Shown here: positions 21,877 to 62,898 of the stretch, in pieces | How the letters are laid out: every line of letters starts with the position of its first letter | Numbering within the stretch: the stretch's first letter is position 1 | DNA from: an uncultured Eubacteriales bacterium | GTDB taxonomy: Bacteria; Bacillota; Clostridia; Oscillospirales; CAG-382 | Direction of reading: 5' to 3' | DNA length: 64,000 bases | NCBI GenBank assembly: GCA_934479825.1 | Contig: CAKSOW010000007.1 | Span: 19,892 to 83,891 of the forward strand | Notes under the pieces: generated by a model | The model's database searches: none | Seen by the model: only the letters and a program-made list of their open reading frames with translations | What the model was told of the DNA's origin: nothing | Translations under genes and position numbers: made by a program

Positions 21877-22284
21877 TCTGTTGCAAAAGTCTCCGTGACA
21901 TATCGGGCGAAGCCCGATTTAAATTTAAATTTGAAAAAATCGGGGACATGCGCCACGATTTTTTCTCAGATAGATTCGCGAGTGTCAAAAAGCGGAGACT
22001 TTTTGGCATGAGGCGCGAGCGTACGAATCTGGTTCGTGTCGTAAAACGAAGTTTTGCGACACGCGCAAAGAAATCCGCGGTCTGTCTGTTGCAAAAGTCT
22101 CTGTGACATATCGGGCGAAGCCCGATTAAAATACAAATTTGAAAAAATCGGGGACATGTGCCACGATTTTTTCTCGGATAGATTCGCGAGTGTCAAAAAG
22201 CAGAGGCTTTTTGGCATGAGGCGTGAGCGTACGGATCTGGTTCGTGTCGTAAAACGAAATTTTGCGACACGCGCAAAGAAATCC
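21869..22284 (+). repeat. two tandem copies (208 bp each) of a structured intergenic repeat, family 1
   Basis: Unit 1 spans 21869-22076 and unit 2 spans 22077-22284; both start GCGGTCTGTCTGTTGCAAAAGTC. The two units are near-identical by direct comparison, differing by scattered substitutions. Further copies lie at 39659-39850 (inverted) and 59037-59232. Confidence 0.9.
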
Positions 22285-22294
22285 GCGGTTTTAC

Positions 22295-24202
22295 TTATTC
22301 GGTTAAGGCTTCTTCTTGGTATGTTACCGTCGCGCCGAGTGCCTCCGCAACAAATCGGACAGGCGCATACGTGCGGTCGTTTTCGAGAAACACCGTTGCG
22401 TCAAGCGTGCGCGGTGCGCCGTTTACATAGGCGATGTTTGTGCCGATAGTGAGCCGAACTGTCGTGCTCTCTTTGACAAAGACTGCCGTTTTTGTTTCAT
22501 CCTCCCATGAAACCTCTGCGCCAAGCGATTCCGCAAGAAAACGTACCGGCACATAGGTGCGGTCGTCTCGCAAAAACGGCGGCGTATCGAGCACCTTTTC
22601 TTCCGCATTGACAAAAGCGGTCGTATTGCCAAGCGTCAGCCGGATCTCGGTCGTGTCGGTTGCAACGGTCACAAGCTTGCGGTACACAACGGGCTTCTCA
22701 TACGAAAAACGGAGAACACCGGCTCCGCTTGGGAAAATCACACTGCAAAGACCGAGTTTGGCATTATACTGTAAATCCACGCAAGAGGCTTGGCGGAAGA
22801 TTGCTTGGCCGTTTGCGTCGAGAAGCAACCAGTTTTCACCCTGACGTGCACGCCACAAGGCGGAAACTTGAAACATTACGGAATCGGCGGCGTAAATGTC
22901 GTCATAGACAAACGGAACACAGGTGTTGCCGTCGGCGTCCAAAACGCCGCACATGGATTCGCCTTTGCAGCCGATAATATAGCCTTGTTGATAGGAATTC
23001 CGGAAATTCGTGAATTCATACGGGGTAACTTCTGTCCCATCCGGACGGATGACGGCAAGAAGCTCGCCTTTCTTTGCCTGCAAAGCTGTGTTGGATAGCC
23101 GTTCCAAATAGTCATAGTCAAAGGGAAGAAGTATATTTCCGGCGCGGTCGATCATCCCCCATTTGCCGTCCTTTTCGACGAGGATCCGGTCGTTATCGAA
23201 ATAGTTTACAGCCCCGTATTCGATCGGAACAACCGGCTTTCCGGCAAGGTCGAATGCGCCGGTTAAGCCGTGTGAAACGGCTTGAACGAGTTCGCTTTGT
23301 GAGAGAGTGTTTGTCGGGATAGCGGAGCAGAGAAGCGACAGATTGTCGTATTCGAGCGGCAGAAGCAGGTTCCCGGAAACATCGATCATGCCGTACCGTG
23401 CGCCGGACGCATCCGAATTGTAAACGACAAGGACATTTTCCGAGATGAAGAAGAGGTGCGAATAGGCGAGAGGAACAACGACATTTCCGGCGTAATCGAG
23501 AAAACCGCATACATAGCCGTTTTCACTCTCGTTTGTCGCATAGATAAGCTCTCTTTTGGGGGAACTGAAATCCTGGGAAAGAGACTCGTATTCAAACGGA
23601 ATGAGAGCTTTTCCGGAAAGATCGATAAGCCCGTATCTTCCGTCTTTCTTGGCAAACAGCGGCGAATCGTTTTTGGTTTCATACAGAGCGGAATCGGCGC
23701 GTGTATCGAATTTTGGGTTTAGGGCGTCATAATCAAACGGCAGAACCGTGTTTCCGGCATAATCGATAACGCCGAATTTACCGGACTTGTTTTCAGCAAT
23801 GAGATACTTGTCGCCAAGCGCGGTAAAACCGTAGATATATCCGAACGGAACGACTATACGGCCGTCTGTATCGCACACGCCCCATTCGCCGGCTCCTTGC
23901 ACTCTGCCGGGGGAGATGTTCTTTCCGAGAGCGAAATAGCCGTCCGCAAGCGTGCGGATATCGTCATATTCGGCAGGAACGACGATCTTTCCGTCCGAAA
24001 GGCGTACAAGACCGCGCTTATACAGGAACGACCCTCCGCCGAAGAAAACGGCAACGTCTTCCGAGGCAGGATTTAAGGAGCGATAGTCGGAATTCGGCTC
24101 AATGAGCCACTGATAAGACCAAGCCGCACTTGCCGTAAGAGCGAAACATACAAGCCAAAAACAGATACAGACGGAAATCGGGAAAAATCGGAAACGTTTC
24201 AT
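22295..24202 (-). CDS. secreted WG-repeat (KWG-type) protein with two C-terminal copper-amine-oxidase-N-terminal-like domains
   Basis: Signal peptide, then repeated G(K/R)(F/Y/W)G(L/V/M)ID..G..(L/V)(I/L)PF(D/E)YD units. The C-terminus has two repeats of the kind ...VNG/AEEKVLD..PF...DRTYVPVRFLAESLGA. Confidence 0.7.
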   Translation of the reverse strand: MKRFRFFPISVCICFWLVCFALTASAAWSYQWLIEPNSDYRSLNPASEDVAVFFGGGSFLYKRGLVRLSDGKIVVPAEYDDIRTLADGYFALGKNISPGRVQGAGEWGVCDTDGRIVVPFGYIYGFTALGDKYLIAENKSGKFGVIDYAGNTVLPFDYDALNPKFDTRADSALYETKNDSPLFAKKDGRYGLIDLSGKALIPFEYESLSQDFSSPKRELIYATNESENGYVCGFLDYAGNVVVPLAYSHLFFISENVLVVYNSDASGARYGMIDVSGNLLLPLEYDNLSLLCSAIPTNTLSQSELVQAVSHGLTGAFDLAGKPVVPIEYGAVNYFDNDRILVEKDGKWGMIDRAGNILLPFDYDYLERLSNTALQAKKGELLAVIRPDGTEVTPYEFTNFRNSYQQGYIIGCKGESMCGVLDADGNTCVPFVYDDIYAADSVMFQVSALWRARQGENWLLLDANGQAIFRQASCVDLQYNAKLGLCSVIFPSGAGVLRFSYEKPVVYRKLVTVATDTTEIRLTLGNTTAFVNAEEKVLDTPPFLRDDRTYVPVRFLAESLGAEVSWEDETKTAVFVKESTTVRLTIGTNIAYVNGAPRTLDATVFLENDRTYAPVRFVAEALGATVTYQEEALTE

Positions 24203-28384: not shown

Positions 28385-29953
28385 TCAATCCGTCGTTTGC
28401 GGTGTATCGCCGCACGGAATCACGACCGTTTTGCGGTTTGGCGGCAGTGAATCGCCCCCAAACCCGTTGGTGCGGCGCAGAGTCTCCTGCGGAATCTCGT
28501 ACTTCTTGGCGATATCCCACAGGTTCTCCTCTTTTTCAGGATAATAGATGATATATTCAGCTTTGCAGAGCGGTTTCGGCTCGTCGTAGTGAATGTCCGC
28601 GCGGTCAATGGCTGTGATTTTTTCACGGTTTAAGCAAATGCCGGTCGTTTCGGTGTCGGCTGTGAGAAGAATTTCGCCGTCGCGCAGGACTGCATTGCAG
28701 TTTTTGCACTCGGTATTCAAAAGATACCGCTTTTCCGGAGTCATGTCACGCACACTTTCCAAGGGCAGATGAATATTGAAAACAGCGGAAGTACCGACGG
28801 TTTCTGCTTTTTCGTTGGCGCCAAGAACCCATGCGAAAGCGCGGCCGGTCATGGTGAGTTTCCCGTCGGACAGTTCCGGCGTCAGGGGTTCGAGGCGGAT
28901 TCCGGCATCGGTGATTTCGGTAAAGCCCTCTCGGTCGGCACGCAAGGACTGCTCCAAGCGGCCATGTTCGCTCACGGTCTGACCGGAGCTGTCAAAGGAA
29001 TACGTGTTTTTTCCAAAATCGCATTCATAGGCCGGCGAAAAACCATCGTCGAAATAGGTGATTTCCGTCTGATCGAACAGGTCGGCAAAGACTTTATAGC
29101 CGAGAGAAACATGAATGACGCGGTTTTCGCCGTAGGCATCAAAAGAAGAACCGGCTTCCATGCCCTCAGGGCGGATTTTTCCGATTACGGTCTGACCGTG
29201 ATGCGCGTCCGGCGAGGGAATCTCTCCCTCAAACGGCAGTTCCTTGGTGAGATAGACATATTCCGCATTCTGCGCATCGGGCGCACTTTCAGCACGGTAG
29301 GTGCACTTGAACAGAACCCGGCCGTTATACCGGATATTTTCGTCTGTCGGAGCAATGTCGTCCAACGAAAAAGCAGCTGTATAATCGACAATGTCAGCAA
29401 TCGGCGCAAGCCCCCCGTCAAGGACGATGTCCTCTTTCAGTTCTTCCGGTTCACTTTGCATTTTTTTGTGTACGGTGCAGAGGGCGGTGCAGGGACGAAG
29501 TTCCGTTTCGCCTTCCTCCGGCGAAAGCAGCGAAATTTCCCCGATATCGGTCACGCTCACACATAAAGCAAGTCCTAAGGTTATGCTCACGGAACGCGGA
29601 TTTTTTGGCTTTGCGGCGGCCGAGAGAATACAGCCGCTTTCTTCGATGACCGGCGTTCCGACGGTTTCCGGCATTTTGGACGCGTCAAAGGTGTGCTCAA
29701 ATTCATTCGGAAACACCGCGCATTTGAGAAATCCCTGCTTTTCGTCGTTATATAGTAAGCGCGTGTTTGTTTTTCCCTTTACGGTGATATGTCCGTCAGA
29801 GAGCGTTGAAGAAAGTGCATAAACATCCGCATCGGTACGGATGATCTTTCCGATTCCGGGGAGATATTCGGGGAGCGCCGCTTCAAATTCCAGCGGAATT
29901 TCCGCTTTGTCGTTGAACGTGACGCTGCATAAGGGGAAAGTGTACGGTTCCAT
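28385..29953 (-). CDS. DUF3794-like protein with a C-terminal LysM domain (spore-coat SafA-like architecture)
   Basis: C-terminal LysM (YIIYYPEKEENLWDIAKKYEIPQETLRRTNGF). The N-terminal repeated beta-rich region is typical of DUF3794 proteins. The ATG at 29953 is preceded by AAGGAG; the track ORF extends to 30118. Confidence 0.65.
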   Translation of the reverse strand: MEPYTFPLCSVTFNDKAEIPLEFEAALPEYLPGIGKIIRTDADVYALSSTLSDGHITVKGKTNTRLLYNDEKQGFLKCAVFPNEFEHTFDASKMPETVGTPVIEESGCILSAAAKPKNPRSVSITLGLALCVSVTDIGEISLLSPEEGETELRPCTALCTVHKKMQSEPEELKEDIVLDGGLAPIADIVDYTAAFSLDDIAPTDENIRYNGRVLFKCTYRAESAPDAQNAEYVYLTKELPFEGEIPSPDAHHGQTVIGKIRPEGMEAGSSFDAYGENRVIHVSLGYKVFADLFDQTEITYFDDGFSPAYECDFGKNTYSFDSSGQTVSEHGRLEQSLRADREGFTEITDAGIRLEPLTPELSDGKLTMTGRAFAWVLGANEKAETVGTSAVFNIHLPLESVRDMTPEKRYLLNTECKNCNAVLRDGEILLTADTETTGICLNREKITAIDRADIHYDEPKPLCKAEYIIYYPEKEENLWDIAKKYEIPQETLRRTNGFGGDSLPPNRKTVVIPCGDTPQTTD

Positions 29954-30148
29954 AAATAAAACTCCTTTGCCTGTGTTTTCTTTAATAAAACATATGCAAA
30001 GGAGTTTAAGGGTATGACTGGGCACAGCTTTCCGGGCTATCTTTTTTTGTCGCGTAGGAATAAACGTAAAAAAGGTTTCAAAAAACGCGGCGGTTTCAAT
30101 AATACGATTTTCATACAATCTTCCTTTCGTTGCGCAAGAACATTGCCT

Positions 30149-39658: not shown

Positions 39659-39850
39659 CGTGTCGCAAAACTTGGTTTTACGCCACGAGCCAGATTCGTG
39701 CGCTCGCGCCTCATGCCAAAAAAGCTGACGCTTTTCGACACGCGCGAATCTATCGGAGAAAAAATCGTGGCGCGTGTCCCCGATTTTTTCAGAATTCAAT
39801 TTGAATCGGGCTTCGCCCAAAAAAGCCGAAAGACTTTTTTAACAGACTTA
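39659..39850 (-). repeat. family 1 structured repeat, inverted copy
   Basis: Starts one base after the stop codon of the 38828 gene. Its reverse complement aligns with 21869-22076 and 59037-59232 (core GGGCGAAGCCCGATT...AATCGGGGAC...GATAGATTCGCG...TTTTGGCATGAGGCG...TTTTGCGACACG). Confidence 0.85.
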
Positions 39851-47344: not shown

Positions 47345-47495
47345 AACCATATTTTCAGGGCAGGGAGCATTTCCCTACCGGCGGTAAAGTCCGAGGGCGG
47401 AGCGGCGTTTCCTATCTTTTACGCACCCGCAGATCCGGTAAGTTTCCAAAAACAATTCCGGAACCGACAGTATAGTCTGGATAAAGAGAAGATGT
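47345..47495 (+). promoter_or_regulatory. FMN riboswitch (RFN element)
   Basis: Conserved RFN core strings CAGGGCAGGG...CCCTACCGGCGGTAA...CCGACAGTATAGTCTGGATAAAGAGAAGA, located upstream of a RibU-like gene. Confidence 0.85.
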
Positions 47496-47591
47496 GGTAA
47501 GCGTTATTTAAGCAGTTTTGCCGGATAACAGCTTATCTTGTTATGTCCTGAGACGAATTGTCCCGGGAATTTTTTGTTTTGAGGTGTTATT

Positions 47592-48161
47592 ATGCAAAAA
47601 AGCTTAAAAAAGACGGCTTTTGTCGGCGTTTTGTCGGCTATGTCGTTTGTCTTGTTTCTGTTCCCGAAATTTCCGATTCTGGCGGCGTTCCCATGGCTCG
47701 ATCTTGATCTCTCAGACGTGCCGGGCTTGTTTGCCTCTGTTATGATTTCGCCGCTTGCCGGACTTCTTGTAGCGCTGATCAAAAATGTGCTCCATTTGGC
47801 TGTTACATCCACAGCCATGATTGGCGAACTGTCCAATTTCCTGATCAACGGTTCCTTCGTTTTCGCAGTTGGGCTCTTGTATCACTATCTGTTTAAAGCG
47901 TCCGGAAAAAGCAGTATACTCGCGTTTTCTCTCGTTCTGGGCTCGGCTGTACAGATCCTTGCCGCGGTTCTTGTCAATTACTTCCTTATGATTCCGATGT
48001 ATTCGGCATTCGTCAATTTCTCCGAGCTCGGCGGCGCAGAAAAATATATTCTTGCCGGCGTAATTCCGTTTAACCTTATTAAGGATATTCTTGTTTCGGC
48101 GATATTCTTTGCCTTGTTCCGTCTGCTTTACCGGAAATTTCATGGTTATTTACATAAATAG
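47592..48161 (+). CDS. ribU: riboflavin ECF transporter S component
   Basis: Similar to B. subtilis RibU/YpaA as recalled (LDLSDVPG vs IDFSDVPA; AGVIPFNLIKDIL vs AGILPFNMIKGIV). The upstream FMN riboswitch supports the call. Confidence 0.75.
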   Translation: MQKSLKKTAFVGVLSAMSFVLFLFPKFPILAAFPWLDLDLSDVPGLFASVMISPLAGLLVALIKNVLHLAVTSTAMIGELSNFLINGSFVFAVGLLYHYLFKASGKSSILAFSLVLGSAVQILAAVLVNYFLMIPMYSAFVNFSELGGAEKYILAGVIPFNLIKDILVSAIFFALFRLLYRKFHGYLHK

Positions 48162-58895: not shown

Positions 58896-59036
58896 GGGAG
58901 AACCTCCTTGCAGTGTGTTGATTTTGAGTGCGTTTTGGTATCTTTATTCTATCATAACCACAGGATTTTGCCATGTGTTTTTTACCGAAAAATATGTGTT
59001 TTTCGGTAAAATAAAACCGCTCCGGATTTTCGGAAC

Positions 59037-59232
59037 GGTTCTGTCTGTGACAAAAGTCATAGGACTGTTTCGGGCAAAGCCCGATTCAAATTGAATTTTG
59101 AAAAAATCGGGGACATGTGCCACGATTTTTTCCCCGATAGATTCGCGAGTGTCGAAAAGCGTAAGCTTTTTGGCATGAGGCGCGAGCGCACGAATCTGTT
59201 GCGCGTCGCAAAATGAAATTTTGCGACACGCG
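59037..59232 (+). repeat. family 1 structured repeat, fourth copy
   Basis: Aligns with 21869-22076 over the whole core. Flanked on both sides by similar hairpins (AAAACCGCTCCGGATTTTCGGAACGGTT on the left and AAAACCGCTCCGATTTCTCGGAGCGGTTTT on the right). Confidence 0.85.
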
Positions 59233-59233
59233 T

Positions 59234-59264
59234 AAAAACCGCTCCGATTTCTCGGAGCGGTTTT
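59234..59264 (-). terminator. rho-independent terminator of the surface-protein operon
   Basis: Stem CCGCTCCGA / TCGGAGCGG with a T-tract on the minus strand. Confidence 0.7.
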
Positions 59265-59272
59265 GCTGTATT

Positions 59273-59398
59273 TTATTCCTCTAACCATTCGCCGTCAATA
59301 TCGACGTCGTCTTGGGGATCTTCGCCGCTGCTCATGAGCAGGTCAGCGGTCAAAAGTTCAATATCCATTTCAGGCGAAATATAATTCTTCTTACGCAT
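59273..59398 (-). CDS. possible 41-aa acidic peptide, translationally coupled to the surface-protein gene
   Basis: Own translation: MRKKNYISPEMDIELLTADLLMSSGEDPQDDVDIDGEWLEE*. The ATG lies inside ...GCCAATGCGTAA (the stop of the upstream gene), with GGAGGA 7 nt upstream. It ends 9 nt before the terminator. Confidence 0.35.
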   Translation of the reverse strand: MRKKNYISPEMDIELLTADLLMSSGEDPQDDVDIDGEWLEE

Positions 59399-62300
59399 TG
59401 GCGCTTCCTCCGTTTACAATATTATTGATATAGTCTTGTTCCTCTTCCGACATGCTTGAAAATGCATCCGAGTTCTGTAACTCTTGTGCAACCTCAAACA
59501 TGCTTCTTGCATAAGGTGAACTGTAATAATAATTGTTTCCGATTTTGATGTAAGCGCGTACAGCGAGGGAAGTGTTGTTATTCTTTATATTGTAGACAAC
59601 GCAGGTGATACCTTCGCTTTCGCCGAATTTGATATCACTGCCTAACGAACCGCCGCCGTTATCGTAAACGATGTCCGTGCCGTCGTTTTTGTTGTAAGCC
59701 ACACCGTAGACGTATTTCGTTCCATCCGGCGTAGTACCTTTGGCTTGCGGACCGGACGGGCCGAAAACGAGGTTGTTCATGGTTTCATCTTTCGCGGTGA
59801 GAGCGGTCTTGTTGCCGACAATGAATCCGATTTCTTCGGCTTGTGCAAGATTTTTTGCGGCAAGGTTCACTTTTGCGGCAAAACGGATACCGGTATTTCC
59901 GGTAATGCGGATAGAATTCTTTTCGATCATGGTCGGAACCGTGATCGAATCCTTTTTCCAGATCGCGTAAAGATTGTTTTCGGAGGTGTTTGTAATGTCA
60001 ATCGAGGCGACCGTGGTCGTGGCATCCGGAGAAGTACCCCAACCGAGGAACACATACCCCTCACGGGCAGGAATGTCGCCGGTCAGACGGTAATCGACGC
60101 CAACAGCCGCTTTGGTGTCGGTTGCAAAAGCCGTACCCGAATTGTCGTTCATGTAATAGGTCACAGTTTTATCACCGGTGCGATAGAACCGGATGTAATC
60201 GACAAGAGACGTGTCACCGATGCTGTATGCCTTGCGGAGTGCATCAAAGTGAAGGGTGTTTTTATTCGTCATGCTTGCGTAATCGAATTTAGACTCGTAT
60301 TCTTTAAGGGAATCGGCATATTTTCCGCCAAATGTGGCTAAGCTTTTATTGTCGGTGCTCTTCAATTCCATGTACGGAAGTTTTTTGTTAAAACGTACAC
60401 GTGCTTTGGCTCGGTTGAAGTCGGCAGAAAGCCCCAAATCAGATACATCTAAGACATAGTAGTGATAGTTGCCCGTCATGTTTACCAAAGCTGTCACGGT
60501 CATAATTCCGTTTGAAAAAGAGGGCTGGGAGTTTTGATGGGTATATGTGAGTTTATCGCTGTTATCAAACTCAAATCCGACGGAAGACGGACGTGTATCC
60601 AACCAGCAGGCATACAGATTTACATCGGCATTTCCAATGGTGATAGCGTCGCTCGGATCGAGCAGATTTGTTTCGGCTTTGGCATCGCTCTCACTTGTTG
60701 CCCAGCCGCGGAATACATAGCCGGTACGTGTCGGAACTTTTCCGGTCAAACGATACCCCACACCGACAGCAGCCTTGTCATCCATATCAAACGTTTCCAT
60801 GGTACCGTCATTCATATAGTATGTGACGGTTTTGTCGCCGGTGCGATAGAAACGAACGTAGTCAATGTTTGCACTTTCCAAGGCGTTGCTTTCATCTGCT
60901 ACTTTTTTTGGTACACGTAAAGCGTCAACAGCAATGATATTTAGCGTACTTGTAAGATCCGGATTCCAGCTTTGTTTAAACTCATGTAATTCGTCTGTGT
61001 ACGGCTTTGCGACACTTTCGTTGTTGCCGCTTTTTGTCAGCCAGAATACACCGGACGAGTGATTGCCAAGAGCAGTATTATTAACATTCAACACAGCCAT
61101 GGCGGCCTGGTTGGTGTTGGAACTTAACCGAGCGCGTAAGAAAATTCGGTTGTAGTCTCCGTTTAAGCCATCGGAATACTTGGCGGCAATATTGATTTTA
61201 AAGCGGTTATATACTCGGTCGGGAAATACTGCGGTAGGAGTATATACACCCAAACCGTTTTGCAGAGTAAGTTTTGAATAGGCGAGGTTTCTGTCTTGAT
61301 AGAGTGTGTCTAAAATTTCGTCTTCATCGTCGCCGCCGAATTCCACGCTTTTCATGGACAGAGCTGTGTAATCATAATCCCAAACCGCATAAAGTGTAAT
61401 GGCATCTGTGGTTTCCGGTGTAATTTCCGTAATCAGATCTTCGTCTTTGTATGCGGCAAGAGCAATTTGCGTTTTCGACCAACCTTTAAAAACAAAATAT
61501 TTGGCGGTCGGTTTGACAGCTGAAAGAGCATTGGACTCGTTCAGAACAGCGTATCCATCCGCAGGCATGCCGCTCACTGCGTCGGCAAGAACCGGCTTAT
61601 TGGCGTCGTAAACGACCTTGGCAAGCTTGCTTTCGTCGATGTTAGCGTAAAGTGTAATGTCGGCACGATTCAAAGCCACGGAAGTTACGGGTTCGCCGCC
61701 TTGTTTGGTTGCCCAGCCGTTTAACGCATCGCCATAAGGATTATAGTTCGGCGTAAAGTTTTCAAGGAAATTACCTTTGTCGTCGATCAGCGTATATTCC
61801 GTTTTGAGAACAGAACTTCCGTCCGGCGTGCAGTAGGTGATTTTGTAGTAGGGGACAAACATAAGGTTGTCCAGATAAACAGAATTGCCTCTATCTAATT
61901 GAAAACCGGCAATCGTTACATCCTGGGAAGAGTAAACAGCAAAAGTTCTTCTGACCGGACTTCCAGTACTGGAACCAACGTCAATGACTTTGGCGTTGCC
62001 GCCGGACGTGGCTAACCACTTTATGCCGGTAGGGTTTGTGTAAAGAAAGTTTTCCTTTTGGTCACTTAGCGTTTTGTGGTTAAAACCGATAAACCAAAAG
62101 TTGGAGTTGCCTATTGTTTGTACATCAACAGAAACATACAACGGACGCTCAGCATCTAAATTGAACTTCCACTGAAAATAAGGATATGTACCGGATACTG
62201 CATTTACTTGTAAAGCTTTGCTGGAATTATTGGTGATAATGGTTGCAGAATCTACATTGGAGATACTTATAATACTGTTGGTTAACAAAACTTGTTTGTT

Positions 62301-62550
62301 CTCAACCCATTTTTCCCCTTCTTCGTAGCTCTCAAACGTCTCCGCCTCCGTTGTCCCGGTAAGAATATTAGTACCAGGGGGGGGGTATGATTCCTGTATC
62401 AGCGGTCAGATCCGCCGTTTCTTGTGCCGGTTCGGCAACCGGGGTGGTCTCCATGCCGTTTTCAACCGGTTCAAGCACCGGAACGGCAAACGCCGTCATG
62501 CAAAGCAAAACTGCAAGCAGAACGATGGCAAGGGTATTGCGCTTTTTCAT
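59391..62550 (-). pseudogene. secreted Listeria-Bacteroides-repeat surface protein (about 1050 aa) interrupted by a frameshift at a homopolymer; a phase-variable gene or an assembly error
   Basis: The 62368-62550 ORF encodes only a Sec signal peptide plus linker (MKKRNTLAIVLLAVLLCMTAFA/VP...) and stops just after the C9 tract. The 965-aa body ORF (59391-62288) is open back to the tract in the frame reached by removing one C. The body contains YVF(R/L/K)GW...LYA(C/I/V)W repeats. Confidence 0.75.
62377..62385. repeat. G9 (coding-strand C9) homopolymeric tract
   Basis: Counted directly: G at 62377-62385. It encodes PPP in the signal-peptide frame. Confidence 0.95.
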
Positions 62551-62642
62551 GAGAAAACTCCTTTCAAATTTATATGTTTTTAAGCGCCGGCTGATAGAAA
62601 CAACCTGAGCGGCGTTTCACAAAAGAAACAATTTCTTTTTTA

Positions 62643-62671
62643 ATTATAAATTTTTCTATGCGCGAAATCAA
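62643..62671 (-). promoter_or_regulatory. sigma-A-type promoter of the surface-protein gene (TTGATT-17 nt-TATAAT on the minus strand)
   Basis: The reverse complement of 62643-62671 reads TTGATTTCGCGCATAGAAAAATTTATAAT. It lies about 90 nt upstream of the ATG at 62550, in an AT-rich spacer. Confidence 0.5.
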
Positions 62672-62861: not shown

Positions 62862-62898
62862 AAAAAAGAGCTTTCCCCAAGGGAAAGCTCTTTTTTTA
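62862..62898 (-). terminator. bidirectional rho-independent terminator after icd
   Basis: Stem AGAGCTTTCCC / GGGAAAGCTCT flanked by A6 and T7 tracts. Confidence 0.85.

What the first reader, a model, noticed from the sequence alone, without database searches (positions are those of the whole stretch)
62368..62390. G9 homopolymer separates the signal peptide from the body of a ~1050-aa surface protein: candidate slipped-strand phase-variation switch
On the coding (minus) strand, the 60-aa ORF encodes MKKRNTLAIVLLAVLLCMTAFA... and ends ...IIPPPWY* immediately after a C9 tract (plus-strand G at 62377-62385). I translated the region by hand. With C8 (or C11) the frame continues as ...IIPPPGTNILTGTTEAETFESYEEGEKWVENKQVLLTNSIISISNVD..., running straight into the 965-aa ORF at 59391-62288. 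The gene is therefore OFF in this sequence and one slippage event from ON. It has lower GC near its 5' end, sits behind an AT-rich 370-bp control region, and encodes Listeria-Bacteroides repeat modules typical of adhesin-like proteins. Homopolymer switches are well documented in Neisseria, Campylobacter and Mycoplasma. I am not aware of them being commonly described in gut Clostridia.
Basis: partly seen in the sequence, partly recalled or inferred. Interest (0 to 1): 0.62.

Follow-up and report, generated by a model that had tools for sequence, protein, structure and literature searches.

The report
Poly-C on/off frameshift in surface-protein gene
A run of nine C's near the start of a large secreted adhesin-like gene of an uncultured human-gut Clostridia bacterium breaks the reading frame here, while nearly identical strains in other people carry eight C's and an intact gene, so this is a real natural on/off polymorphism of a well-known kind, not yet shown to switch at high frequency.

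Summary
On the minus strand a C9 run (plus-strand G 62377-62385) ends a 60-aa signal-peptide ORF. C8 or C11 fuses it to the 965-aa ORF and gives a 1052/1053-aa secreted Listeria-Bacteroides-repeat protein. It is not an assembly artefact. About 30 public human-gut metagenome contigs of the same species carry either C8 or C9. One strain differs from the window by 1 SNP plus the tract over 6.5 kb and is C8, with an intact gene. C9 sits on three haplotype backgrounds, which suggests recurrent slippage, but the gene is visibly recombining, so this is not proven. Most sampled populations are OFF: C9 in at least 11 samples, and a separate non-repeat frameshift (C3 to C4) in at least 10. Only about 5 samples are intact. 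The sister species has interrupted or short tracts at the same codons and carries its own 1-nt-deletion lineage. Within-species pN/pS is 0.5-1.3 in the gene and about 0.05 in the neighbouring icd. The best reading is a slippage-prone homopolymer acting as a mutational ON/OFF switch in a dispensable, fast-evolving surface protein. This is a candidate contingency locus, a new member of a known kind. Reversible high-frequency switching within a clone is untested.

The parts
62377..62385 (-). Homopolymer tract. It is C9 on the coding (minus) strand and covers codons 56-58 (Pro-Pro-Pro). C9 is the frameshifted OFF state; C8 is the in-frame ON state.
   Evidence: C8 or C9 was found in 30 same-species loci.
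62368..62550 (-). The 60-aa truncated product of the OFF allele. It has a signal peptide (MKKRNTLAIVLLAVLLCMTAFA|VP), a short acidic linker, PPP, then WY and a stop.
   Evidence: This exact 60-aa product is called on 18 public contigs.
59391..62550 (-). Full extent of the surface-protein gene when ON (1052 aa with C8). In the window the body is the 965-aa ORF 59391-62288, which lacks a signal peptide.
   Evidence: One search gives the fusion. Searches show natural 1052-aa alleles P0047, P0048 and P0051; P0048 is identical to the repaired window protein. Searches give the Flg_new and TIGR02543 repeats.
61925..61927 (-). Second inactivation site. It is C3 here (TCTTCCCAGG, codon ~207). It is C4 in a widespread lineage, which splits the gene into 219 + 850 aa. 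This short run is not expected to be hypermutable.
62558..62565 (-). Shine-Dalgarno sequence GAAAGGAG, 7 nt upstream of the ATG at 62550.
   Evidence: Read directly from the sequence.
62643..62671 (-). Sigma-70-like promoter candidate (TTGATT, 17 nt spacer, TATAAT) in the 28% GC intergenic region.
   Evidence: a 10 of 12 match, but shuffled sequence gives 2.1 such sites on average, so this is only a candidate.
62862..62896 (.). Perfect 16-bp hairpin flanked by A and T runs. It is the likely terminator of the upstream icd gene and insulates the surface-protein gene from read-through.
   Evidence: I4.
59273..59398 (-). Conserved 41-aa acidic ORF that overlaps the stop of the surface-protein gene. 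It is probably co-transcribed, so it may be affected by polarity in the OFF state (inference).
   Evidence: It is called in all same-species loci and in the sister species as 41 or 42 aa. No family match.

Best explanation
The tract is a real, slippage-prone poly-C run at codons 56-58 of a 1052-aa secreted, adhesin-like Listeria-Bacteroides-repeat protein. The organism is an uncultured human-gut member of the class Clostridia. C8 (or C11) is in frame and yields the full pre-protein. C9 shifts the frame, so translation stops two codons later and only a 60-aa signal-peptide fragment is made. The window carries the OFF allele. In natural populations the locus exists as both C8 and C9, on near-identical and on different haplotypes. 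This is best explained by recurrent single-base replication slippage, so the tract works as a heritable mutational ON/OFF switch (a candidate contingency locus).

Shown: the anatomy, the frame consequences, the natural C8/C9 polymorphism, and its occurrence on several backgrounds.

Inferred: that the changes are independent slippage events at an elevated rate; that they run in both directions; that OFF abolishes surface display; and that OFF is favoured or tolerated in the gut.
For: 1. Frame logic.

2. A natural ON allele exists. P0048 (1052 aa) is identical to the repaired window protein. Its contigs L001 and L002 differ from the window by 1 mismatch plus the 1-base tract gap over 6503 and 4830 bp.

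3. C9 occurs in at least 10 other samples and on 18 contigs from different assemblers. Two assemblies of the same run (ERR912164) agree on C9.

4. C9 lies on three haplotype classes defined by SNPs 109 and 79 bp upstream: G-T, G-C and A-C. C8 haplotypes exist with G-C (L001) and A-C (L006). That means at least 2-3 changes at one site. The remaining 3.68 kb has 68 variable columns, so the tract changes roughly 100 times or more faster than the per-site average (inference). This falls in the 100-10,000-fold range that defines simple-sequence-repeat (SSR) phase-variable loci (review PMC11868660).

5. The tract is uninterrupted in all 30 same-species loci and is built from minor Pro codons.

6. 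In the sister species the same codons vary in length in frame: CCCCTCTCCC, CCCACCCCC and CCCCCC. This points to a long-standing indel-prone spot filtered by selection for frame.

7. The position and product are typical of such loci. The tract lies in the 5' 5% of a gene for a signal-peptide protein with adhesin-type repeats. The gene evolves fast: about 50% aa identity between species, while the flanking genes are 83-88% nt identical. Within-species pN/pS is 0.5-1.3, against about 0.05 for icd.

8. A direct precedent exists in a gut commensal. In Bifidobacterium breve, the reference genome carries the OFF length of pilus-gene G-tracts, and G10 or G9 fuses the split ORFs (PMC9187656).
Against: No within-sample or read-level length heterogeneity could be examined. 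Only lengths 8 and 9 were seen. C7, C10 and C12 could not be searched.

The gene is mosaic and recombining. Several ordinary SNPs show as many four-gamete conflicts (16-17 of 35) as the tract does (16 of 35). A single C9 origin spread by short-patch recombination is therefore not excluded. Between the L001 and L003 haplotypes the roughly 1.5 kb around the tract is identical, so such an import would be invisible.

The same gene is inactivated by non-repeat frameshifts. One is C3 to C4 in this species (15 contigs). The other is a 1-nt deletion in the sister species (12 contigs, including the GTDB representative genome of that species). OFF can therefore be permanent, and no switch is required.

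The tract is not conserved beyond this species. C8 is at the low end of tract lengths known to phase-vary. A G/C run of 8 or more is expected 0.63 times per 64 kb under a Markov-1 model.
Confidence: 0.6

Rival explanations
1. Segregating pseudogene allele with no special switching. A single +1 slip made C9 once. The allele then persisted and spread onto other backgrounds by homologous recombination, because loss of this protein is neutral or beneficial. The tract is just where one of several knock-outs happened.
For: The gene is knocked out by ordinary frameshifts in two species, and those lineages are widespread. About 85% of sampled contigs of this species are OFF. pN/pS of 0.5-1.3 indicates weak constraint. 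Recombination is pervasive in the gene. Only two tract lengths were seen. The sister species lacks a long tract.
Against: C9 and C8 pair up on near-identical haplotypes: window versus L001/L002, and the L024 type versus L006. The A/G SNP only 109 bp from the tract conflicts with it, so recombination would need a very short patch. No C9 allele carries any secondary disruption, and all 10 full-length haplotypes keep a 3156-nt ORF once the known frameshift is removed. G/C runs of 8-9 are intrinsically far more mutable than average sites (established knowledge; review).
Confidence: 0.27
2. Sequencing or assembly artefact. The true tract is C8 and the gene is intact in this genome.
For: Homopolymers are the classic site of indel errors, and the window's sequencing platform is unknown.
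Against: The exact 60-aa C9 product is called on 18 contigs from at least 10 independent samples, assembled with MEGAHIT, SPAdes and Logan. Two assemblies of one run agree. C8 is called just as consistently in at least 15 other samples. No other long ORF in the window is visibly broken at a homopolymer.
Confidence: 0.03
3. Recoding rescues the C9 allele. Either RNA-polymerase slippage on the C9/G9 run, or +1 ribosomal slippage of tRNA-Pro on CCC-C during the EF-P-dependent PPP stall, yields some full-length protein. C9 would then be 'low', not OFF. This can coexist with the main explanation.
For: CCC-C is a known +1-prone context and PPP is a known stalling motif (general knowledge, not tested here). 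Homopolymer runs of 9 or more can support transcriptional slippage (Atkins et al. 2016, cited in PMC9187656).
Against: In-frame C8 alleles are common, so the frameshifted arrangement is not a conserved, obligatory design. The 0-frame stop lies two codons after the run, not adjacent to it, and no stimulatory element was identified. Transcriptional slippage is best documented for A/T runs. In the comparable B. breve case the authors attribute the effect to replication slippage.
Confidence: 0.05

Closest known systems
Bifidobacterium breve UCC2003 sortase-dependent pilus G-tract switches (bbr_0113, bbr_1889; Penno et al. 2022, PMC9187656)
   Same: The host is a Gram-positive human-gut commensal. 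An intragenic G/C homopolymer lies in a surface-structure gene. The reference genome carries the OFF length, annotated as two split ORFs, and a one-base change fuses them. OFF predominates.
   Different: The B. breve tracts are longer (G10-G11) and recur across the genus. Their switching was measured directly by maximum-depth sequencing and shown to shift in mice. Here the tract is C8/C9, confined to one species, in a non-pilus Flg_new protein, with only between-sample evidence.
Classical SSR contingency loci (poly-G/C tracts in Campylobacter jejuni, Neisseria and Haemophilus surface genes; review PMC11868660)
   Same: A homopolymer sits in the 5' part of a surface-protein ORF. ON and OFF are set by the reading frame. 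Tract length is polymorphic among closely related strains.
   Different: Those organisms carry many such loci (a 'phasome'), often lack full mismatch repair, and show wide length distributions with measured rates of 1e-5 to 1e-2. Here only one locus is known from 64 kb, only two lengths were seen, and no rate is available.
Invertible-promoter phase variation in Clostridia and streptococci (C. difficile cwpV, flgB, cmrRST, pdcB; S. zooepidemicus SZO08560)
   Same: The outcome is ON/OFF heterogeneity of surface or signalling proteins in Firmicutes. SZO08560 is itself a Listeria-Bacteroides-repeat surface protein with an invertible promoter, and it is lost in S. equi (PMC2654543).
   Different: The mechanism is site-specific inversion, not slippage. 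Here no convincing inverted repeats flank the promoter (I3 is 73% complementary and AT-rich). All 30 loci are collinear.
Homopolymer-tract frameshift polymorphisms in Mycobacterium tuberculosis and Bordetella pertussis (PMC11898584, PMC1891110)
   Same: Short G/C tracts of 7-9 bases give recurrent, homoplastic frameshifts across lineages in otherwise stable genomes. Whether to call them phase variation or microevolution is debated.
   Different: Those are pathogens, studied with isolate collections and phenotypes. Here the organism is an uncultured commensal known only from metagenome assemblies.

Membership tests
SSR-mediated phase-variable (contingency) locus | Uninterrupted simple-sequence repeat, long enough to be slippage-prone, inside an ORF or promoter | tested here: met
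   C9 in the window. C8 or C9, never interrupted, in 30 same-species loci. It is the only G/C run of 8 or more in 64 kb.
SSR-mediated phase-variable (contingency) locus | Changes in repeat number toggle between a full-length and a truncated product | tested here: met
   C8 and C11 give 1052 and 1053 aa. C9 gives 60 aa. C7 and C10 give 88 and 89 aa.
SSR-mediated phase-variable (contingency) locus | Tract-length polymorphism among closely related strains | tested here: met
   The window (C9) and L001/L002 (C8) differ by 1 SNP plus the tract in 6.5 and 4.8 kb. C9 sits on three haplotype classes.
SSR-mediated phase-variable (contingency) locus | High-frequency switching within a clonal population (about 100-10,000 times the basal rate) | not testable with these tools
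   No reads or cultures are available. An indirect estimate of 100-fold or more over the per-site average comes from homoplasy but is confounded by recombination.
SSR-mediated phase-variable (contingency) locus | Reversibility (both ON to OFF and OFF to ON) | tested here: inconclusive
   The haplotype pattern needs repeated changes or recombination, and direction cannot be polarised.
SSR-mediated phase-variable (contingency) locus | Tract maintained by selection (conserved in orthologues or related lineages) | tested here: not met
   The syntenic orthologues in the sister species have CCCCTCTCCC, CCCACCCCC or CCCCCC at the same codons, all in frame. Within the species the tract is always intact, and it uses minor Pro codons.
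SSR-mediated phase-variable (contingency) locus | Product is surface-exposed or mediates interaction with host or phage | tested here: inconclusive
   The N-terminal signal peptide was identified by inspection. Flg_new and TIGR02543 repeats were found. No anchor motif or family was found. The AlphaFold model is poor (pLDDT 52) and there is no PDB relative.
Listeria-Bacteroides repeat (Flg_new, PF09479 / TIGR02543) surface proteins | Repeats score above the curated family thresholds | tested here: met
   Pfam 60.3 bits against a cutoff of 27, in 2 stretches. TIGR02543 66 bits against 20.95, in 3 stretches.
Listeria-Bacteroides repeat (Flg_new, PF09479 / TIGR02543) surface proteins | Cell-wall anchoring signal (LPXTG, SLH, CWB2 and the like), as in internalins or SZO08560 | tested here: not met
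   No such domain appears in the Pfam or NCBIfam scans. The C-terminus ...NNIVNGGSANA has no LPXTG.
Programmed recoding site (transcriptional slippage or +1 ribosomal frameshift) | The out-of-frame arrangement is the conserved, obligatory gene structure | tested here: not met
   In-frame C8 alleles are common in the same species, and all sister-species alleles are in frame at this site.
Invertible-promoter (inverton) switch | Inverted repeats flank a promoter, and both orientations are seen | tested here: not met
   Only a weak AT-rich inverted repeat was found (73% complementary). All public loci are collinear with the window.

The most novel reading that the evidence does not exclude
This is a true contingency locus in an uncultured, spore-forming gut Clostridia species. 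Under this reading a homopolymer switch sits on an adhesin-like Flg_new protein and flips within hosts. OFF is strongly favoured in vivo, so strongly that two sister species have independently fixed permanent frameshifts in the same gene. That would point to a common selective agent (IgA, phage or a competitor) targeting this protein. It would be the first SSR-type phase variation documented in commensal Clostridia, where only DNA inversion switches are known.
Probability: 0.35. Interest if true: 0.55.

Novelty: new member of a known kind. Interest (0 to 1): 0.4.

Why it matters
Phase variation in gut Firmicutes has so far been described almost only as DNA inversion. An SSR switch on an adhesin-like protein in a commensal Clostridia species would extend homopolymer contingency loci to a major, mostly uncultured part of the human microbiota.

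The locus is also practical to study. ON and OFF genotypes can be read directly from public metagenomes. Most people sampled carry OFF populations, reached by three different mutational routes across two species. This gives a concrete, testable hint that expressing this surface protein is costly in the gut. For genome annotation, the 60-aa + 965-aa split should be recorded as one frameshifted, possibly phase-variable gene, not as two genes.

Tried and rejected
1. Other tract lengths. A homologous-protein search with the 89-aa C10 product found nothing. This is probably because only cluster representatives are searched. Exact look-up of the C6, C7, C9, C10, C12 and C13 short products also failed, even for the C9 positive control. 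The absence of C7 and C10 is therefore uninformative. The one JGI metagenome pattern scan (gap of 5-14 bases) returned a single C9 contig.

2. Apparent third disruption. L032 (303 + 762 aa) turned out to be an N-gap scaffolding artefact. Its tract is C8 and site 2 is C3.

3. Structure. An AlphaFold2 model from an 11-sequence alignment gave mean pLDDT 51.6 and pTM 0.33. That is too poor for fold searches, so none were run. A profile search of PDB sequences gave no hits.

4. Inverton hypothesis. It was rejected because the only inverted repeat is weak and all loci are collinear.

5. Four-gamete test. It was meant to single out the tract as uniquely homoplastic. It did not, because several SNPs are equally incompatible: the gene recombines.

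6. GnT hotspot idea (PMC12344412). On the plus strand the tract is followed by T. A T-to-G change there would turn ATA into ATC (synonymous) and lengthen the run in frame. All same-species loci keep ATA, so there is no sign of this.

7. Genome-collection scan. It found only the sister species ('Clostridia bacterium HGM12628'), not the window's own species. The organism is therefore named only to class. This rests on that record title and on a SipL/SPOCS sporulation protein in the window.

8. Rfam. It found no regulatory RNA near the gene.

Full report
**1. Observation**

On the minus strand the window reads ...GGA ATC ATA CCC CCC CCC TGG TAC TAA. The C9 run is plus-strand G at 62377-62385. The ORF list shows a 60-aa ORF at 62368-62550(-), MKKRNTLAIVLLAVLLCMTAFA...IIPPPWY*, and a 965-aa ORF at 59391-62288(-).

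I rebuilt the gene with different tract lengths:
- C8 gives a continuous 1052-aa protein and C11 a 1053-aa protein (...IIPPPGTNILTGTTEAETF...).
- C6, C9 and C12 give 59-61 aa.
- C7 and C10 give 88-89 aa.

The tract is the only G/C run of 8 or more in 64 kb; the next longest are G7 and C6. A first-order Markov model expects 0.14 runs of 9 or more and 0.63 runs of 8 or more in a window of this size. Presence alone is only mildly unusual.

The codon choice is more telling. Proline in this window is 68% CCG, 20% CCC and 8% CCT. CCC-CCC-CCT is an unlikely way to write PPP, and the one other poly-Pro run uses CCA-CCG-CCG-CCG.

Side claims:
- The upstream intergenic region is 28% GC. Confirmed.
- The protein has Listeria-Bacteroides (Flg_new / TIGR02543) repeats. 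Confirmed.
- The 5' 300 nt of the gene are not low in GC (49%). Not confirmed.

**2. What is there: evidence from other samples**

Its members are 1052 aa (intact), 965 aa (as in the window), and 219 + 850/823 aa. I fetched the encoding contigs. This gave 30 same-species loci, all from human-gut metagenome assemblies.

The loci fall into three mutually exclusive states:
- C8 with the rest intact (ON): L001, L002, L005, L006, L032, about 5 samples.
- C9 (OFF): the window plus at least 10 other samples. The exact 60-aa product is on 18 contigs.
- C8 plus a second +1 frameshift (TCTTCCCAGG to TCTTCCCCAGG at codon ~207; window 61925-61927): 15 contigs, at least 10 samples.

C9 is called by MEGAHIT, SPAdes and Logan assemblies, and by two assemblies of the same run. 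It is not an assembly artefact.

The intact protein P0048 is identical to my in-silico repair of the window gene. Its contigs match the window with 1 mismatch plus the single tract gap over 6503 and 4830 bp. A practically identical strain in another person is ON.

**3. Recurrence versus recombination**

A table of variable sites shows C9 on three haplotype classes:
- the window/L028 type;
- the L003/L023 type;
- the L024-L027/L029 type.

C8 partners share the flanking SNPs: L001/L002 with the first class, and L006 with the third.

The tract conflicts (four gametes) with a SNP only 109 bp away. The simplest reading is two to three independent single-base slips. Against 68 variable columns in 3.68 kb, that is roughly 100 times or more above the per-site average. 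This falls in the range used to define SSR phase-variable loci (review PMC11868660).

The gene is clearly mosaic, however. Several ordinary SNPs show just as many incompatibilities. The roughly 1.5 kb around the tract is identical between two of the backgrounds. A single origin moved by recombination cannot be excluded.

The C3 to C4 insertion looks monophyletic at its 5' side.

**4. Comparative context**

A sister species carries the syntenic orthologue. Its representative genome is titled 'Clostridia bacterium HGM12628'. The gene order is aconitase, a 257-aa gene, isocitrate dehydrogenase, the surface gene, a 42-aa ORF, then alpha-L-fucosidase.

At the same codons its alleles read CCCCTCTCCC (IPSPG), CCCACCCCC (IPTPG) or CCCCCC (IPPG). 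All are in frame. The site is thus an old, indel-tolerant Pro-rich linker. A long uninterrupted tract exists only in the window's species.

The flanking genes are 83-88% identical in DNA between the two species. The surface protein is only about 50% identical in protein and occurs as mosaic alleles of 1056-1076 aa.

Within the window's species pN/pS is 0.5-1.3 for this gene. For icd it is about 0.05 (6 synonymous and 1 non-synonymous difference).

The sister species also has a widespread lineage, including its representative genome, with a 1-nt deletion at a non-repeat site (CTT-CAT to CTT-AT). This splits the gene into 253 + 740 aa and is seen on 12 contigs.

Loss of this protein is therefore tolerated or favoured in both species, by three different mutational routes.

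**5. Gene anatomy and product**

- A GAAAGGAG Shine-Dalgarno sequence lies 7 nt before the ATG.
- A TTGATT-17-TATAAT promoter-like site lies at 62671-62643. Shuffled sequence gives as many such sites, so it is only a candidate.
- A perfect 16-bp hairpin at 62862-62896 probably terminates icd.
- There is no credible inverted-repeat pair around the promoter, and all loci are collinear. An inverton is rejected.
- The product has a typical signal peptide (AFA|VP) and a short acidic linker.
- The PPP junction follows the linker, then about 1000 residues of predicted beta-rich modules with Flg_new repeats.
- No recognisable wall anchor was found.
- The AlphaFold model was too poor to use (pLDDT 52), and there is no PDB sequence relative.
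- Flg_new repeat proteins are generally treated as adhesin-like and gut-associated (PMC7883539).
- One of them, SZO08560 of Streptococcus zooepidemicus, is phase-variable through an invertible promoter and is lost in S. equi (PMC2654543).

**6. Mechanism**

*Shown.* Tract length sets the frame. Both lengths exist in nature on near-identical backgrounds. The window is OFF.

*Inferred.* Replication slippage on the C8/C9 run adds or removes one base at a rate far above background. This gives heritable ON/OFF variants. In OFF, only a 60-aa secreted fragment is made, and the signal-less 965-aa ORF is not displayed. OFF predominates in the human gut.

*Unresolved.* Whether the tract is a selected switch or simply the most fragile site of a gene that is often lost.

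*Rivals:*
- A single-origin pseudogene allele spread by recombination (about 0.27).
- Recoding that makes C9 leaky (about 0.05, not mutually exclusive).
- A sequencing artefact (about 0.03).

**7. Comparison with known systems and novelty**

The closest precedent is the pair of G-tract switches in Bifidobacterium breve pilus genes. There the reference genome also carries the OFF length as split ORFs, and G10 or G9 restores the gene. That study adds direct measurements and in-vivo enrichment (PMC9187656).

Classical Campylobacter and Neisseria contingency loci share the logic but form large phasomes. In Clostridia, the phase variation covered by the 2025 review is inversion-based, and my literature searches found no homopolymer example in commensal Clostridia.

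The locus meets the structural and polymorphism criteria of an SSR contingency locus. It fails the criterion of conservation beyond the species. The rate and reversibility criteria cannot be tested here.

I rate it a new member of a known kind. It is of moderate interest, mainly because ON and OFF states can be read from public metagenomes and OFF dominates through convergent inactivation.

Noticed in passing
window 59013-59264; copies at about 39659-39847 (+) and 22078-22277 (-): A repeated intergenic element of about 190-250 bp occurs three times in the window. The copies are 85-87% identical. The core is conserved and includes a GTGTCGCAAAA...TTTTACGACAC hairpin. The copy downstream of the surface-protein gene has 28-nt imperfect terminal inverted repeats. 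The sister species has a shorter intergenic region at that position (about 170 versus 378 bp), which suggests the element is absent there. It has no Rfam match and may be a MITE-like or REP-like element or a small RNA.
   Followed up: partly
window 59273-59398 (-): A 41-aa, highly acidic ORF (MRKKNYISPEMDIELLTADLLMSSGEDPQDDVDIDGEWLEE) overlaps the stop codon of the surface-protein gene. A 41/42-aa ORF is called at the same position in every same-species locus and in the sister species. It has no family match. It could be a translationally coupled partner whose expression depends on the ON/OFF state upstream.
   Followed up: partly
L017 4001-7173 (identical to L033); sister species 'Clostridia bacterium HGM12628': The orthologue in the sister species' representative genome carries a 1-nt deletion at a non-repeat site (CTT-CAT to CTT-AT). 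This splits it into 253 + 740 aa. The same lesion is on 12 contigs from at least 7 samples. It is an independent, apparently irreversible inactivation of the same gene.
   Followed up: yes
window 61925-61927 (plus-strand GGG; minus-strand TCTTCCCAGG): In a widespread lineage of the same species this C3 is C4, which frameshifts the gene at codon ~207 (219 + 850 aa) while the poly-C tract stays at the ON length C8. The lesion is on 15 contigs and looks monophyletic at its 5' side, with recombinant 3' parts.
   Followed up: yes
sister-species alleles P0002-P0026 (1056-1076 aa): The orthologues in the sister species are mosaics. Internal modules (N-terminal domain, middle domains) are swapped in different combinations between alleles, which suggests cassette-like recombination in this surface protein.
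   Followed up: no
window 47347-47497 (+): An FMN riboswitch (RF00050, 76.5 bits) lies upstream of the ORF at 47592-48161.
   Followed up: no
window 28385-30118 (-) and 22295-24202 (-): A SipL/SPOCS-domain protein (a Clostridia spore-coat morphogenesis marker) supports a spore-forming Clostridia origin. A copper-amine-oxidase-N-domain plus WG-repeat protein is another putative envelope protein nearby.
   Followed up: no
window 62377-62386 (plus strand G9 followed by T): On the plus strand the tract is a GnT motif, reported as a T-to-G substitution hotspot (PMC12344412). Here T to G would change ATA to ATC (both Ile) and lengthen the run by one base without changing the frame. That would be a silent route to a longer, more mutable tract. 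No same-species locus shows it.
   Followed up: partly
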